A stretch of 64,000 nucleotides of DNA. Origin: Escherichia coli (GTDB lineage Bacteria; Pseudomonadota; Gammaproteobacteria; Enterobacterales; Enterobacteriaceae). Shown piece by piece: positions 43,601 through 49,600 of the stretch (the stretch's first letter is position 1; every line of letters begins with the position of its first letter). The stretch lies in NCBI RefSeq assembly GCF_048403405.1, contig NZ_CP183129.1. One strand, given 5' to 3'. Made by a program: the position numbers.

Positions 43601-46600
43601 TACTACATCAGCGATAAAGGCCAGAAATACCGAAAAGACGTTCAGCAAATAATCAGCCAACTCAAGTTAGACATTTTCACCAAATCACGACTACGCATCA
43701 AAGTCATCGCAGACGTTCCAGACTCCCGCCGCCGAGACCTCGATAACATCCTGAAAGGTTTACTCGACTCCCTTATCCACGCCGGATTTGCGGAAGACGA
43801 CGAGCAATTCGATGACATTCGCGTAATTCGTGGCGTGAAAGTACCAGGCGGAAGGCTTGGAATAAAAATCACCGAACTGGAGAGCGTATGAACGCCACAA
43901 TTCAAACGATACCAGAGCTTCTTATCCAGACACGAGGCAATCAGACCGAAGTGGCAAGGATGCTTTCCTGCGCAAGAGGAACAGTGCTCAAGTACAACCG
44001 AGACAGCAAAGGCGAGCGTCACGTAATAGTTAACGGCGTCCTGATGGTCAAACAGGGCAAAAGGGGAAGGCCATGAGACTCGAAAGCGTAGCTAAATTTC
44101 ATTCGCCAAAAAGCCCGATGATGAGCGACTCACCACGGGCTACGGCTTCTGACTCTCTTTCCGGTACTGATGTGATGGCTGCTATGGGGATGGCGCAATC
44201 ACAAGCCGGATTCGGAATGGCTGCATTCTGCGGTAAGCATGAACTCAGCCAGAACGACAAACAAAAGGCTATCAACTATCTGATGCAATTTGCACACAAG
44301 GTATCGGGGAAATACCGTGGCGTTGCAAAACTTGAAGGAAATACTAAGGCAAAGGTACTGCAAGTGCTCGCAACATTCGCTTATGCGGATTATTGCCGTA
44401 GTGCCGCGACGCCGGGCGCAAGATGCAGAGATTGCCACGGTACAGGCCGTGCGGTTGATATTGCCAAAACAGAGCAGTGGGGGAGAGTTGTCGAAAAAGA
44501 GTGCGGAAGATGCAAAGGCGTCGGCTATTCCAGGATGCCAGCAAGCGCCGCATATCGCGCTGTAACGATGCTAATCCCAAACCTTACCCAACCCACCTGG
44601 TCACGCACTGTTAAGCCGCTGTATGACGCTCTGGTGGTGCAATGCCACAAGGAAGAGTCAATCGCAGACAATATTTTGAATGCGGTCACACGTTAGCAGC
44701 ATGATTGCCACGGATGGCAACATATTAACGGCATGATATTGACTTTTTGAATAAAGTTGGGTAAATTTGACCCAACGATGGGTTAATTCGCTCGTTGTGG
44801 TAGTGAGATAAAAAGAGGCGGCGCTTACTACCGATTCCGCCTAGTTGGTCACTTCGACGTATCGTCTGGAACTCCAACCATCGCAGGCTGAGAGGTCTGC
44901 AAAATGCAATCCCGAAACAGTTAGCAGGTAATAGTTAGAGCCTGCATAACGGTTTCGGGATTTTTTATTTGGGTCAGTCGTATAAAGGTCATTACGGAAG
45001 GCTGTTAACCTTCTTATCGTGGTTCGAGTCCACGCTGTCCCGCCAAATATGCTGGTTTAGCTCCAATGGTAGAGCAGTCGCCTTGTAAGCGAATGGGTAG
45101 CGGTTCAAGTCCGTTAACCAGCACCATAACTGAGCCGTAGCCACTGGCTATCCTGAATTCATCAGTGATAGTTACGCTGCGGCCTTCTACACATGACCTT
45201 CGTGAAAGCGGTGGCAGGAGGTCGCGCTAATAACCTCCTGCCGTTTTGCCCGTGCATATCGGTCACGAACAAATCTGATTACTAAACACAGTAGCCTGGA
45301 TTTGTTCTATCAGTAATCGACCTTATTCCTAATTAAATAGAGCAAATCCCCTCAATGAAGGGGTAGAGCATGTACCGTATGGACAAAATCAGAGAATGGT
45401 TCAGTTACAGCTTCGGAGGACTGACTGCGATGGGTGGCATTCTCTCCCTGAATGACTGGGCTGTCATCATTGGTATTCTTTGTACTGTCGGCACATTTGG
45501 CATCAACTGGTACTACAAGCGCAAAGAGCGCGAGGACAGATTGAATGGCAATGTCACCGGCACTACGAAATAGCGTAATAGCGGCGATAAGTGGCGGGGC
45601 TATTGCTATAGCATCTGTGTTAATCACTGGACCAAGTGGTAACGATGGTCTGGAAGGTGTTAGCTACATACCATACAAAGATATTGTTGGTGTATGGACT
45701 GTATGTCACGGACACACCGGAAAAGACATCATGCTCGGTAAAACGTATACCAAAGCAGAATGCAAAGCCCTCCTGAATAAAGACCTTGCCACGGTCGCCA
45801 GACAAATTAACCCGTACATCAAAGTCGATATACCGGAAACAATGCGCGGCGCTCTTTACTCATTCGTTTACAACGTGGGTGCTGGCAATTTCAGAACATC
45901 GACGCTTCTTCGCAAAATAAACCAGGGCGATATCAAAGGCGCATGTGATCAGCTACGTCGCTGGACATATGCTGGCGGTAAGCAATGGAAAGGTCTCATG
46001 ACTCGTCGTGAGATTGAGCGTGAAGTCTGTTTGTGGGGGAAACAATGAGCAGAGTAACCGCGATTATCTCCGCTCTGGTTATCTGCATCATCGTCTGCCT
46101 GTCATGGGCTGTTAATCATTACCGTGATAACGCCATGACCTACAAAGAGCAGCGCGATAAAAAAGTCAGTGAGCTGAAGCAGGCGACCGCCACCATTACT
46201 GACATGCAGCAACGCCATCGTGCTGCTGATGCACTCGATGCTAAATACACGAAGGAGTTAGCTGATGCGAAAGCTGAAAATGATGCTCTTCGGCGCAAGC
46301 TTGATAATGGTGGCAGGGTGCTCGTCAAAGGAAAATGCCCTGTGCCATCCTCAGCCGAAACCTCCGGCGCCTCCGGCATGGGCAATGATGCCACCGTCGA
46401 ACTCTCTCCAGTTGCTGGACGAAACGTTCTCGGTGTCCGGGACGGAATTATCCGCGACCAAACAGCACTGAGAACGCTTCAGGAATACATCAGGACGCAA
46501 TGCCTTCGATGATAGCGATAATTTTACTCATCATCCTTCACATCTGGCTCTGTAGACAGGGTGGTGCTCACTTCTGGAGTAAATCCAGATTAAACATCTC

Positions 46601-49600
46601 ATTGCTGATGCTTGATATTGAGCATCTGGCGCGCAGTAAGGGGCTGCGTTGAGATAAGAGCCAGTTCATTACAAATACCAGGATTTAGCCTCGCATTCGC
46701 GGGGCTTTTTATATCTGAATTTCACAGCGCATCTCACGCGCATATTAACGAGAGCCTTTCAGTAAGCGAGCCTGAGAAATGCCGTTATAGGTGGCGACCT
46801 CTCTCGGGCGGCTTTTCTGTGAGACAGGCTCACTTTCTAAAAGGTAAAGACGCTATGAATAACTTTGTTGAAATTACCTCAAGAATTGGTCGCATGTACC
46901 AAGATTTTCTTATAAGTGGAAAGGGGTCTGGCGACATCATAGAGGAAATTGACAAGCTAAGTGCAGAGCTGAGAAGGAATGGGTGTGTTAATTCTATCTT
47001 TTTTGAAACTTTGCTAAAGCAAGGCTTCATGTTTGACATGATTAATTACAACAAAGTCGCACCCAGTGCTTCGCAAAAATCATATGTGTACGTTCTGCAT
47101 GCTGAAGATAGTGGGCTAACAAAAATAGGGTTTAGTCGCAGGGTTAATAAACGAATTTCAGAGATATCTCGCATGAGTGGCGGGAAGCTAAATCTAATTG
47201 CAAAGATTCCGGCCGATAGAGAGCTTGAAACCAAATTGCACCAAAAATATTACAACTATAGGTCGCACGGGGAGTGGTTTAGTCTCAATCGTTGTCATTT
47301 GAAAGAGCTAAAAGAAATGCCTGGTAACGAACTGAAATAATCCCCGGACTCACCAATTAACGGCAGTACAGCGAAACAACCCAAGCCAGAAAGTGGGGAA
47401 ATAACACTGACAGCCACTGAAAGATGAACCTCCTGCCTTATGGCAAAAAAGATTCTTTGTGGTGGCGGACTGATGGAAAGACATCGGTTATTGCAGAGGC
47501 CATTCAATGAGTGGTCTCGACAATGGCTTATACCCTACACGGGATAACTTAACTGATATCCCTTTTAACGGATAAACGGAGCCAACAATGGCAGAGATTA
47601 TTCCCATGACTGAAGAACAGAAATTCCAGTTAGAGATTTACAAGCTGGTCATGAACCAGAACGCAGCCGCAGAGGAAGCATTTCAATTTATTGGCACTGA
47701 CGAGCTGAAGCTTGAGCTATTCAAAATTCACTTCCAGTCAGGCGGCGCTAATTCAGATATCACGACCCGCACAATCGAAGCGGTACGTAAATCGAAGGAA
47801 GCGTTAGACCTGTTCACTACCGGAGCATAAACATGGCGCGCCCAACAAAGTATCAAGAGGCGTACGCCGAACAGGCACGCAAACTGTGCTTGCTGGGCTA
47901 CACCGATGCAGAGCTTGCTGATTTCTTCGAAGTCAGTGAGTCAACTATTAACAAGTGGAAGCTTGATTATCCTGAGTTTTCGGAGTCCATAAAAAAGGGT
48001 AAGGCCGTCGCTGATGCAGAAGTTAGTGATCGTCTTTATCAACGCGCTATGGGCTTCGTGGCTCCAGACATCGATATTCGTGTTATTGAAAACAGAATTG
48101 TCGAAACTCCGCTTGAGAAGTATTACCCGCCTGATACAACCGCCGCCATCTTCTGGCTTAAGAACCGACAGAAGGATAAATGGCGCGATAAGGTTGATCA
48201 CGAGCTAACAGGCAAAGACGGCGGCGCAATCCAGATTGAAACATCACCGATGAGCACTCTATTCGGAAAATGACCTCGATTAATCCTATCTTTGAACCGT
48301 TCATTGAGGCGCATCGCTATAAAGTCGCCAAAGGCGGTCGAGGTAGCGGTAAGTCATGGGCAATCGCGAGGTTGCTTGTTGAGGCGGCACGTCGGCAGCC
48401 TGTGCGTATTCTTTGCGCTCGTGAACTGCAAAACAGTATCAGCGATTCGGTAATCCGACTGCTTGAAGACACCATAGAGCGGGAAGGGTATTCGGCCGAG
48501 TTTGAAATTCAGCGTTCCATGATTCGTCATCTCGGAACAAATGCTGAATTCATGTTCTATGGCATCAAAAACAACCCGACAAAGATTAAATCGCTCGAAG
48601 GCATTGATATCTGCTGGGTGGAAGAAGCGGAAGCGGTAACGAAGGAATCATGGGATATCCTGATTCCAACCATCCGTAAGCCGTTCTCTGAAATATGGGT
48701 GAGCTTTAACCCGAAGAACATCCTCGACGATACCTATCAGCGATTCGTCGTAAATCCTCCTGATGATATTTGTCTGCTGACGGTGAACTACACCGACAAC
48801 CCGCACTTTCCTGAAGTTCTCCGTCTGGAGATGGAAGAGTGCAAACGCAGAAATCCGACACTGTATCGTCACATCTGGCTGGGTGAGCCGGTAAGCGCAA
48901 GTGATATGGCAATCATCAAACGTGAATGGCTTGAAGCTGCAACCGATGCGCACAAGAAACTCGGATGGAAAGCGAAAGGCGCTGTTGTTTCTGCGCATGA
49001 CCCGTCAGATACAGGGCCAGATGCTAAAGGTTATGCATCGCGTCACGGTTCGGTAGTTAAGCGCATTGCCGAAGGTCTGCTGATGGACATCAACGAGGGT
49101 GCTGACTGGGCTACTTCGCTGGCGATTGAAGACGGCGCTGACCATTACCTGTGGGATGGCGATGGTGTCGGTGCAGGGCTACGCAGACAGACAACGGAAG
49201 CATTCTCCGGCAAGAAAATTACCGCCACGATGTTCAAGGGCAGCGAATCGCCATTCGATGAAGATGCGCCTTATCAGGCCGGAGCATGGGCTGATGAAGT
49301 CGTACAGGGCGACAACGTTCGCACTATTGGCGATGTTTTCCGCAATAAGCGAGCGCAATTCTATTACGCGCTGGCTGACAGGCTGTATCTGACATATCGG
49401 GCGGTTGTCCACGGTGAGTATGCAGACCCCGACGACATGCTGAGCTTCGACAAAGAAGCGATAGGCGAGAAGATGCTGGAGAAGCTGTTTGCAGAACTGA
49501 CGCAGATTCAGCGCAAATTCAATAACAACGGGAAGCTGGAGCTAATGACTAAGGTCGAAATGAAGCAGAAGCTCGGTATTCCATCTCCTAACCTGGCTGA

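What the first reader, a model, noticed from the sequence alone, without database searches (positions are those of the whole stretch)
46513..47340. T5orf172 (GIY-YIG-like) moron between lysis cassette and terminase
After a terminator following Rz/Rz1, a separate gene with its own RBS encodes a 161-aa protein with a T5orf172-like motif. It sits in a typical moron slot and may act in defence or DNA targeting.
Basis: partly seen in the sequence, partly recalled or inferred. Interest (0 to 1): 0.5.

Follow-up and report, generated by a model that had tools for sequence, protein, structure and literature searches.

The report
Swappable phage nuclease gene after lysis genes
The gene is real and encodes a small GIY-YIG/T5orf172-type nuclease, already catalogued (identical to phage epsilon34 gp68); it is one of several interchangeable genes that P22-like and lambda-like prophages place behind a shared folded RNA leader between their lysis and DNA-packaging genes, so it is mostly ordinary.

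Summary
Observation confirmed. ATG 46855 to stop 47340 (+) encodes 161 aa. Its C-terminal half matches Pfam MUG113 (7.5e-13) and T5orf172 (1.7e-9) and models as a GIY-YIG nuclease fold, with the catalytic-type residues conserved across the family. The protein is 100% identical to Salmonella phage epsilon34 gp68, which RefSeq names "GIY-YIG nuclease family protein". It occurs in 57 of 5426 complete E. coli genomes.

- The slot is variable; it is the P22 rha locus.
- No own promoter or downstream terminator was found.
- The upstream terminator, a ~90-nt covarying hairpin that pairs the ribosome-binding site, and the ATGAA start are shared with unrelated cargo ORFs (Rha, KilA-N, Bro-N).
- These ORFs replace each other precisely, ORF for ORF.
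- No defence-system membership was found.

New details: residues 4-67 are homologous to HK620 HkbL, a stand-alone protein of a rival allele. The leader hairpin has no Rfam match.

Best guess (about 0.4): a nuclease made from the late operon that acts in homing or competition between phages. Function is untested. Interest is low to moderate.

The parts
46033..46512 (+). Rz-type spanin gene with Rz1 embedded at 46265..46471. This is context: the end of the lysis cassette.
   Evidence: ORF list. Homologous genes are annotated Rz/Rz1 in epsilon34, HK620, Sf6 and CUS-3.
46500..46652 (+). Conserved 50-aa ORF with a hydrophobic N-terminus, homologous to Sf6 gene 65 and epsilon34 gp67. Function unknown.
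   Evidence: phrog_11822 at 4.1e-36. Annotated in epsilon34, Sf6 and E. coli 13KWH46.
46687..46712 (+). Intrinsic terminator: 8-bp stem AGCCTCGC/GCGGGGCT plus a T run. It precedes the slot in almost all related loci.
   Evidence: Scan. Annotated as a terminator in epsilon34 and HK106. The stem sequence differs between loci while pairing is kept (GCCTGAC/GTCGGGC, GCCAGC/GCTGGC), seen in the alignment.
46755..46844 (+). Conserved ~90-nt imperfect hairpin in the leader.
- Base: CCUUU (46755-59) pairs with the Shine-Dalgarno AAAGG (46840-44).
- Outer stem: GAGCCUG (46768-74) with CAGGCUC (46825-31).
- GAGAA pairs with the U tract (46813-19).
- Inner stem: GCCGUU (46781-86) with GGCGGC (46807-12).
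- Tip: AGGU/ACCU, with an invariant GGCG loop (46793-96).
   Evidence: Four diverged leader types fold alike, at about -38 kcal/mol with z -2.7 to -3.4. RNAalifold predicts 17 pairs, 9 of them with compensatory changes on both sides. 96.6% of cells are paired against 82% in shuffles (0/500 reach it) and 36-53% when the partner is slid. The Shine-Dalgarno is paired with p>=0.5 in 48 of 54 contexts, and 0.98-1.0 in the window. No Rfam match.
46855..47340 (+). The gene: 161-aa protein, 100% identical to epsilon34 gp68 and g341c gp64.
   Evidence: RefSeq name 'GIY-YIG nuclease family protein'.
46864..47055 (+). N-terminal three-helix domain (residues 4-67), homologous to the stand-alone 85-aa protein HkbL of phage HK620 (phrog_875).
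   Evidence: PHROG hit. BLASTP 33% identity over 55 aa, E 9e-11. hhalign probability 97.8%. AF2 helices at 3-21, 25-41 and 47-68.
47083..47316 (+). C-terminal T5orf172/MUG113 domain (residues 77-154) with a GIY-YIG fold. Family-invariant residues: Y79, K90, G92, R100, E125, H129, E140, W141.
47351..47485 (+). Conserved 135-nt spacer. Its left edge (47350-47352) is the right junction of the cargo slot for every cargo type. Its right edge (47485/47487) is a second insertion slot, empty in the window.
   Evidence: blastn breakpoints. Slot 2 is filled in Sf6 (gene 66), Huey and E. coli 13KWH46.
47588..47830 (+). DUF2560 gene (hkbM / P22 orf80 homologue), the next conserved gene before the terminase genes. 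This is context.
   Evidence: phrog_571 at 2.3e-41. Neighbour annotations.

Best explanation
The gene encodes a small two-domain DNA endonuclease. It has a C-terminal T5orf172-type GIY-YIG catalytic domain and an N-terminal three-helix domain related to HK620 HkbL. The N-terminal domain most likely supplies target or partner specificity.

The gene is not an independently expressed moron. It is one allele of an exchangeable cargo position, the P22 rha locus. That position lies inside the Q-dependent late operon of P22-like and lambda-like phages.

Inferred steps:
- In a lysogen, the upstream terminator(s) and the sequestered ribosome-binding site keep the gene silent.
- After induction, antiterminated late transcription reads through, and a limited amount of nuclease is made.
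- The nuclease cuts DNA of co-resident or co-infecting related phages that carry a different allele or target.
- This favours inheritance of its own allele and the linked packaging genes, by free-standing homing or inter-phage competition, as proposed for T5orf172 genes of ICP1-like phages.

Shown here: the domain identities, the fold, the conserved catalytic-type residues, the cassette anatomy, the shared structured leader and the sporadic distribution.

Inferred: nuclease activity, timing of expression, the target and the selfish or competitive role.
For: - Y79, K90-I91-G92, R100, E125, H129 and E140-W141-F142 are invariant or nearly so, down to 25-40% identity. This argues for long-term selection on a catalytic site.
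- A T5orf172 domain has been shown to be an active nuclease that depends on the conserved Glu, in ICP1 Odn/Gp88. There it is fused to an N-terminal DNA-binding domain copied from its target element (PMC8263062).
- T5orf172 genes are described as putative homing endonuclease genes enriched next to terminase genes and at recombination boundaries (PMC10448857).
- This gene lies about 0.5 kb upstream of the terminase genes. Homologues of 62% and 31% identity occupy the same relative position in two other lambdoid lineages.
- Distribution is sporadic: 57 of 5426 E. coli genomes, against 640 that carry the leader, and 3 isolated phages.
- The ORF is 99.6-100% identical between E. coli and Salmonella phages, while the adjacent leader is only 65-83% identical.
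- The N-domain is homologous to HkbL, which is encoded by a rival allele of the same slot.
- No promoter was found, the terminator and leader are shared, and the Shine-Dalgarno is paired.
- Lytic genes of the related prophage BTP1 run as one operon.
Against: - No activity, target site or expression data exist for this protein or any close homologue.
- ORF-precise swapping is equally seen for the non-nuclease cargo genes Rha, KilA-N and Bro-N. Mobility therefore needs no nuclease and is not specific evidence for homing.
- The allele is a minority (about 9% of leader-bearing E. coli sites) and has not swept.
- Polymorphisms next to the junction are linked to the allele but not exclusive to it.
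- The promoter scan is a simple consensus search and cannot exclude weak or non-sigma-70 promoters.
Confidence: 0.4

Rival explanations
1. The protein is a sequence-specific DNA-binding regulator or anti-repressor-like factor, functionally equivalent to the Rha, KilA-N and Bro-N proteins that occupy the same slot. The T5orf172 domain would be used mainly for DNA binding, like the domesticated CapR lineage, rather than for cleavage.
For: - The same leader, the same start junction and similar size (160-185 aa) as the Rha (64 loci), KilA-N (21) and Bro-N (1) cargo genes.
- The P22 slot gene rha is annotated as an anti-repressor.
Against: - CapR keeps the Zn-finger domain, not the T5orf172 domain.
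- Here the full GIY-YIG-type residue set is invariant across the family, which would not be needed for binding alone.
- The protein lacks the ORF11CD3-like C-terminal module shared by the other cargo proteins, and its N-domain is unrelated to that module.
Confidence: 0.2
2. The gene is a prophage-expressed defence gene, a true moron. A nuclease made in the lysogen would cut the DNA of superinfecting phages.
For: - Low G+C.
- A position where lambda-like phages carry accessory genes.
- A weak PADLOC hit to the candidate family PDC-S57 (E 4e-4).
Against: - No promoter was found.
- One or two terminators lie immediately upstream, and the ribosome-binding site is sequestered.
- No downstream terminator.
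- No membership in any curated defence system.
- The fold match is generic to GIY-YIG.
- A single-gene nuclease with no modification or self/non-self partner would also threaten the host.
- The lysogeny-expressed genes highlighted in the related BTP1 prophage are elsewhere.
Confidence: 0.15
3. The protein is an accessory factor for DNA packaging or genome processing, analogous to the HNH protein gp74 that assists HK97 terminase.
For: The gene lies directly upstream of the terminase genes in three lambdoid lineages.
Against: - It is absent from most otherwise near-identical phages, where Rha or KilA-N genes replace it.
- HK106 carries both this gene type and the HNH gene.
- The packaging genes next to it differ between lineages.
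Confidence: 0.05

Closest known systems
Salmonella phage epsilon34 gp68 / g341c gp64 (RefSeq 'GIY-YIG nuclease family protein'; PHROG 4284)
   Same: 100% amino-acid identity, and the same position after Rz, gp67 and the terminator and before the DUF2560 gene.
   Different: The window copy sits behind an HK620-type leader variant; the leader is 65-83% identical to that of epsilon34. The protein is uncharacterised, and a term search of the epsilon34 genome paper found no mention of gene 68 or gp68.
T5orf172-family putative homing endonuclease genes of ICP1-like, T5-like and other phages (Barth, Dunham & Seed 2023, PMC10448857)
   Same: C-terminal T5orf172 domain with an N-terminal non-catalytic domain. 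Sits next to terminase genes and at a recombination boundary. Presence is variable between relatives.
   Different: No CapR/DUF723/DUF4397 Zn-finger domain; the N-domain is a three-helix HkbL-like bundle. The host is a temperate lambdoid phage. The gene shares an expression leader with non-nuclease alleles.
ICP1 Odn (Gp88), a chimeric origin-directed nuclease (PMC8263062)
   Same: T5orf172 nuclease domain fused to an N-terminal domain homologous to a protein encoded by a competing genetic element (RepA_N of PLE there; HkbL of the rival slot allele here).
   Different: HkbL has no known DNA-binding activity or target. No evidence for cleavage here. The analogy is structural only.
GIY-YIG free-standing homing endonucleases of T4 (I-TevI, Seg proteins)
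   Different: The domain order is reversed (catalytic domain N-terminal in I-TevI; stated from general knowledge). The 'YIG' Tyr is replaced by Lys (K90). Sequence similarity to PDB GIY-YIG chains is not significant (E 0.27-0.9).
P22 rha / HK620 hkbK-hkbL / CUS-3 Rha-like gene (alternative occupants of the slot)
   Same: The same slot, the same terminator plus structured leader, and the same SD-ATGAA junction and right junction. HkbL is homologous to the N-domain.
   Different: Those proteins have Rha, KilA-N or Bro-N DNA-binding domains plus an ORF11CD3-like C-terminal module and no nuclease domain.

Membership tests
Pfam T5orf172 (PF10544) / MUG113 (PF13455), GIY-YIG superfamily | Significant match to the family HMMs | tested here: met
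   MUG113 i-E 7.5e-13 and T5orf172 1.7e-9, residues 77-154. 17130 representative proteins match the family profile at E<=1e-3.
Pfam T5orf172 (PF10544) / MUG113 (PF13455), GIY-YIG superfamily | GIY-YIG fold (beta-beta-alpha-beta-alpha core) | tested here: met
Pfam T5orf172 (PF10544) / MUG113 (PF13455), GIY-YIG superfamily | Conserved catalytic-type residues (Tyr of the first motif, Gly of the second, Arg, Glu) | tested here: met
   Y79, K90/G92, R100, E125, H129 and E140 are invariant in 17- and 62-sequence alignments. Their mapping onto I-TevI R27/E75 is inferred from motif order, not from residue-level superposition.
Pfam T5orf172 (PF10544) / MUG113 (PF13455), GIY-YIG superfamily | Endonuclease activity | not testable with these tools
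   Needs biochemistry.
Free-standing homing endonuclease gene | Nuclease domain plus a recognisable DNA-binding domain | tested here: inconclusive
   The nuclease domain is present. The N-domain has no Pfam or NCBIfam match and only generic helical-bundle fold matches. It has no Zn-finger motif.
Free-standing homing endonuclease gene | Sporadic presence among close relatives, next to conserved essential genes | tested here: met
   57 of 640 leader-bearing E. coli genomes. Flanks 98-99% identical to phages that carry Rha or KilA-N instead. Terminase genes lie 0.5 kb downstream.
Free-standing homing endonuclease gene | Mobility attributable to the nuclease (cleavage of the allele lacking it, co-conversion of flanks) | tested here: inconclusive
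   Non-nuclease cargo genes show the same precise swapping. Junction-proximal polymorphisms are linked to the allele but not exclusive. Cleavage is not testable here.
Moron (independently expressed extra gene in a phage operon) | Extra gene between conserved genes, absent or different in relatives, with atypical composition | tested here: met
   Sf6 lacks the terminator, leader and cargo at this point.
Moron (independently expressed extra gene in a phage operon) | Own promoter upstream and own terminator downstream | tested here: not met
   No + strand promoter-like site and no + strand terminator after the stop in 46300-47900. The segment between the terminator and the hairpin is not conserved between leader types. 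This is a simple consensus scan, so weak promoters are not excluded.
Moron (independently expressed extra gene in a phage operon) | Expression from the repressed prophage | not testable with these tools
   Only indirect evidence: in BTP1 the highlighted lysogeny-expressed genes are elsewhere.
Known anti-phage defence systems (PADLOC-DB v2) | Significant match to a system component in the expected gene context | tested here: not met
   Only PDC-S57 at E 4e-4 (18 bits) and PDC-M64B at 0.034, both candidate families. No partner genes are present.

The most novel reading that the evidence does not exclude
The protein may be an Odn-like chimeric weapon in a contest between alleles. Its N-terminal domain would have been captured from HkbL, a protein of the rival hkbK-hkbL allele of the same slot. 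That domain would steer the GIY-YIG domain to whatever DNA site or partner HkbL recognises. Phages carrying this allele would then cut competitors and convert their slot.

The shared, covarying leader hairpin, which has no Rfam match, would be a dedicated lock that keeps all the toxic cargo alleles of this slot (Rha, KilA-N, Bro-N, nuclease) silent until late lytic growth.
Probability: 0.12. Interest if true: 0.7.

Novelty: already known. Interest (0 to 1): 0.3.

Why it matters
As stated, the finding is routine annotation. The same protein has been in GenBank since the epsilon34 genome of 2008 and is named by RefSeq.

The anatomy around it is more useful. About 12% of complete E. coli genomes carry this leader-plus-cargo position. 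Four families of DNA-targeting proteins alternate there behind one structured leader. The role of the best-known occupant, P22 rha, remains poorly defined (from general knowledge).

Two cheap experiments follow. One tests whether the nuclease allele behaves as a gene drive in phage crosses. The other tests whether the hairpin gates translation. Both would help explain how lambdoid phage mosaics are generated and how phages compete inside one cell.

Tried and rejected
- A profile search against PDB sequences gave only non-significant GIY-YIG hits (UvrC and UPF0213, E 0.27-0.9).
- NCBIfam gave no hit. PADLOC gave only weak candidate hits.
- Rfam gave nothing in 44600-48000 except the two tRNAs and a chance osmY hit.
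- Idea: HkbL is a universal partner of the slot proteins. Rejected: an HkbL ORF follows only the HkbK-type KilA-N cargo (7 of 8) and none of 60 Rha loci.
- Idea: the HkbL-like domain is a permuted version of the ORF11CD3-like C-terminal module of the Rha, KilA-N and Bro-N cargo. Rejected: hhalign probability 0.1%.
- Idea: the 242-aa TTG ORF is the real gene. Rejected, because its 5' part overlies the shared non-coding leader.
- Search for target-site immunity polymorphisms in the 3' spacer. Linked but not exclusive variants were found, so this is inconclusive.
- Literature search for the rha/IHF papers and for the Iyer-Koonin-Aravind domain-shuffling paper found nothing in the held library. 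Statements about them rest on memory and on what PMC8263062 and the Netter preprint say.
- The epsilon34 genome paper has no occurrence of 'gene 68' or 'gp68'.

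
Full report
**What is there**

The window is an E. coli chromosome segment carrying a P22-like (Lederbergvirus) prophage. 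The gene order around the finding is: Q antiterminator (44073..44696), tRNA-Asn and tRNA-Thr (44971-45126), holin, endolysin, Rz/Rz1 (46033..46512), a 50-aa ORF, the gene in question, a DUF2560 gene, small and large terminase, and portal.

The longest ORF across the finding is 46612..47340 (242 aa, TTG start). Its first 81 codons overlie a terminator and a leader that are conserved as non-coding DNA in front of unrelated genes.

**Domain check**

- Pfam: MUG113 (PF13455, 7.5e-13) and T5orf172 (PF10544, 1.7e-9) on residues 77-154.
- PHROG 4284 (unknown function) matches the full length at 1.4e-75.
- NCBIfam has no hit. PADLOC has only a weak hit to the candidate family PDC-S57 (E 4e-4).
- A family profile finds 17130 representative proteins for the C-terminal domain. 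Only a few dozen proteins of about 160 aa share the whole architecture.
- In 17- and 62-sequence alignments, Y79, K90, (I91), G92, R100, E125, H129, (G139), E140, W141 and (F142) are invariant or nearly so.

**It is already catalogued**

The protein is 100% identical to gp68 of Salmonella phage epsilon34, to gp64 of g341c and to a protein of phage NM-3. RefSeq names it "GIY-YIG nuclease family protein". It is present once per genome, on the chromosome, in 57 of 5426 complete E. coli genomes. No occurrence of 'gene 68' or 'gp68' was found in the epsilon34 genome paper, and I found no experimental work on the protein.

**Anatomy of the locus**

Breakpoint mapping against HK620, CUS-3, Sf6, Huey, epsilon34 and an E. 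coli prophage shows an ORF-for-ORF replacement.

- Homology with HK620 and CUS-3 runs up to window 46859, that is, through the ribosome-binding site and ATGAA. It resumes at 47338-47351, just after the stop codon.
- In HK620 the same leader drives hkbK (KilA-N) followed by hkbL. In CUS-3 it drives a Rha-like gene. In P22 the slot is rha.
- Sf6 lacks the terminator, leader and cargo altogether.
- A second insertion point lies at 47485/47487. It is empty in the window and filled in Sf6, Huey and E. coli 13KWH46.

I scanned IMG/VR with the junction motif AAGGYAAN{0,2}ACGCTATGAA, which gave 120 loci. Behind the same junction sit the following cargo types:

| Cargo | Loci | Basis |
|---|---|---|
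| Rha-family protein | 64 | TIGR02681 |
| This T5orf172 protein | 10 | cluster with the window protein |
| KilA-N protein | 10 | PF04383 plus weak ORF11CD3 |
| HkbK-type KilA-N | 9 | HK620 hkbK cluster |
| HK106-type T5orf172 | 5 | cluster with HK106 protein |
| Further KilA-N-like (assigned by eye) | 2 | sequence inspection |
| Bro-N protein | 1 | PF02498 |

All are 160-190 aa. The right junction is 47350-47352 for every type. In complete E. coli genomes the leader (types detectable by megablast) occurs in 640 of 5426 genomes, mostly with Rha or KilA-N cargo.

The T5orf172 ORF is 99.6-100% identical between the window and epsilon34, while the leader just upstream is only 65-83% identical. ORFs and leaders therefore recombine at the SD/ATG junction. 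A 62%-identical homologue (locus L008) and a 31%-identical one (phage HK106) occupy the same relative position in two other lambdoid lineages with different lysis and packaging genes. That position is: after Rz and a terminator, before the packaging genes.

**The leader**

Between the stop of the 50-aa ORF and the ATG lie three elements:
- An intrinsic terminator at 46687-46706 plus a T run. It is annotated in epsilon34 and HK106.
- A short GCGC hairpin, seen in the alignment and not tested further.
- A ~90-nt imperfect hairpin at 46755-46844.

Four diverged leader types fold into the same shape, at about -38 kcal/mol with z -2.7 to -3.4. RNAalifold predicts 17 pairs, 9 with compensatory changes on both sides. 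In the pair count, 96.6% of cells are paired, against 82% after shuffling (0 of 500 shuffles reach it) and 36-53% when partners are slid. These changes come from only three or four diverged lineages, so the number of independent events is small.

The apical GGCG loop is invariant. The U tract pairs with an upstream GAGAA. The Shine-Dalgarno AAAGG forms the 3' strand of the hairpin base: CCUUU/AAAGG in the window, CCUUA/UAAGG in type D. It is predicted to be paired with p>=0.5 in 48 of 54 unique contexts, and 0.98-1.0 in the window. Rfam has no match.

No sigma-70-like promoter is found on the + strand in 46300-47900, and no + strand terminator follows the gene. The stretch between the terminator and the hairpin is not conserved between leader types.

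The gene therefore has a ribosome-binding site, but that site, the terminator and the leader belong to the slot, not to the gene. The signals point to silence in the lysogen. Expression would come only by read-through of the Q-antiterminated late operon, with damped translation. In the related prophage BTP1, the lytic genes are reported to run as one operon starting after the two tRNA genes, and the highlighted lysogeny-expressed genes lie elsewhere (PMC7067206).

**The N-terminal domain**

Residues 4-67 form three helices. They are homologous to HK620 HkbL, phrog_875: BLASTP 33% identity, E 9e-11, and hhalign probability 97.8%. HkbL is a stand-alone 85-aa protein with a basic tail. It is translationally coupled (ATGA overlap) to the KilA-N protein HkbK in the same slot. 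It has more than 130 unannotated relatives in enterobacterial prophages.

HkbL follows only HkbK-type cargo (7 of 8) and none of 60 Rha loci. The HkbL-like domain is unrelated to the ORF11CD3-like C-terminal module of the other cargo proteins. Its function is unknown.

**How it most likely works**

T5orf172 is treated in the literature as a GIY-YIG subfamily.
- ICP1 Odn (Gp88) is an active T5orf172 nuclease that depends on the conserved Glu. Its N-terminal DNA-binding domain was copied from its target element (PMC8263062).
- T5orf172 genes are proposed homing endonuclease genes enriched near terminase genes and at recombination boundaries (PMC10448857).
- CapR is a domesticated relative that acts as a repressor.

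By analogy, and given the invariant catalytic-type residues, I favour (0.4) a nuclease made during lytic growth that acts on rival phage DNA or alleles, by homing or competition.

The main caveat is that the non-nuclease cargo genes swap just as precisely. The mosaic pattern alone is therefore not evidence for homing. Junction-linked polymorphisms are suggestive only.

The rivals are:
- a DNA-binding regulator equivalent to Rha, KilA-N or Bro-N (0.2);
- a lysogen-expressed defence nuclease (0.15);
- a packaging accessory factor (0.05).

**Verdict**

The 'T5orf172/GIY-YIG' label is right. 'Typical variable slot' is right. 'Moron with its own signals, acting in defence' is not supported.

The gene itself is already known and annotated, and its function is untested. 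The points that I did not find described are the HkbL-like N-domain and the covarying leader hairpin shared by all cargo alleles. Neither has a match in the held paper library or in Rfam. Interest is low to moderate.

Noticed in passing
window 46755-46844 (+), with the terminator at 46687-46712: A ~90-nt covarying hairpin sequesters the Shine-Dalgarno of whatever gene sits in the slot. It is shared by Rha, KilA-N, Bro-N and T5orf172 cargo, is present in 640 of 5426 E. coli genomes, has an invariant GGCG apical loop, and has no Rfam match.
   Followed up: yes
window 47485/47487: A second precise insertion point lies 135 nt downstream of the first. It is empty here. It is filled by Sf6 gene 66 (annotated 'anti-CRISPR' in phage Huey) or by two ~53-aa ORFs in E. 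coli 13KWH46.
   Followed up: partly
L135 (phage P22, NC_002371) 576 versus 646; L005 (CUS-3) 1810 versus 1879: The annotated starts of P22 rha (ORF201) and of the CUS-3 Rha-like gene lie inside the conserved leader hairpin. The conserved SD+ATGAA start is 70 nt downstream, so these genes are probably annotated about 23 codons too long.
   Followed up: partly
window 46500-46652 (+): A conserved 50-aa ORF overlaps the end of Rz. It has a hydrophobic N-terminus (phrog_11822; Sf6 gene 65, epsilon34 gp67). Function is unknown; it may be a further lysis-cassette component.
   Followed up: no
window 44971-45126 (+): tRNA-Asn(GTT) and tRNA-Thr(TGT) genes lie between the Q antiterminator gene and the holin gene, as in Sf6 and BTP1.
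   Followed up: no
window 47429-47450 (-): A terminator-like hairpin on the minus strand lies inside the conserved spacer downstream of the gene. Its significance is unknown.
   Followed up: no
proteins P0014 and P0005: Two metagenome gene calls look like products of deletions or misassembly across the slot. P0014 fuses a DUF1364-like N-terminus, Rz and the C-terminal 45 residues of this protein. P0005 fuses two thirds of it to DUF2560.
   Followed up: no
E. coli ES3, hit H93: Only the 3' third of the leader is present, next to an 'HNH endonuclease signature motif containing protein' and a Rha gene. This may be another nuclease gene inserted in the same leader.
   Followed up: no
hits H30 and H35: Two assemblies labelled E. 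coli DH5alpha carry this prophage gene at 99.6% identity. From general knowledge, K-12 derivatives are not expected to hold a P22-like prophage, so this may be strain mislabelling or lysogenisation.
   Followed up: no
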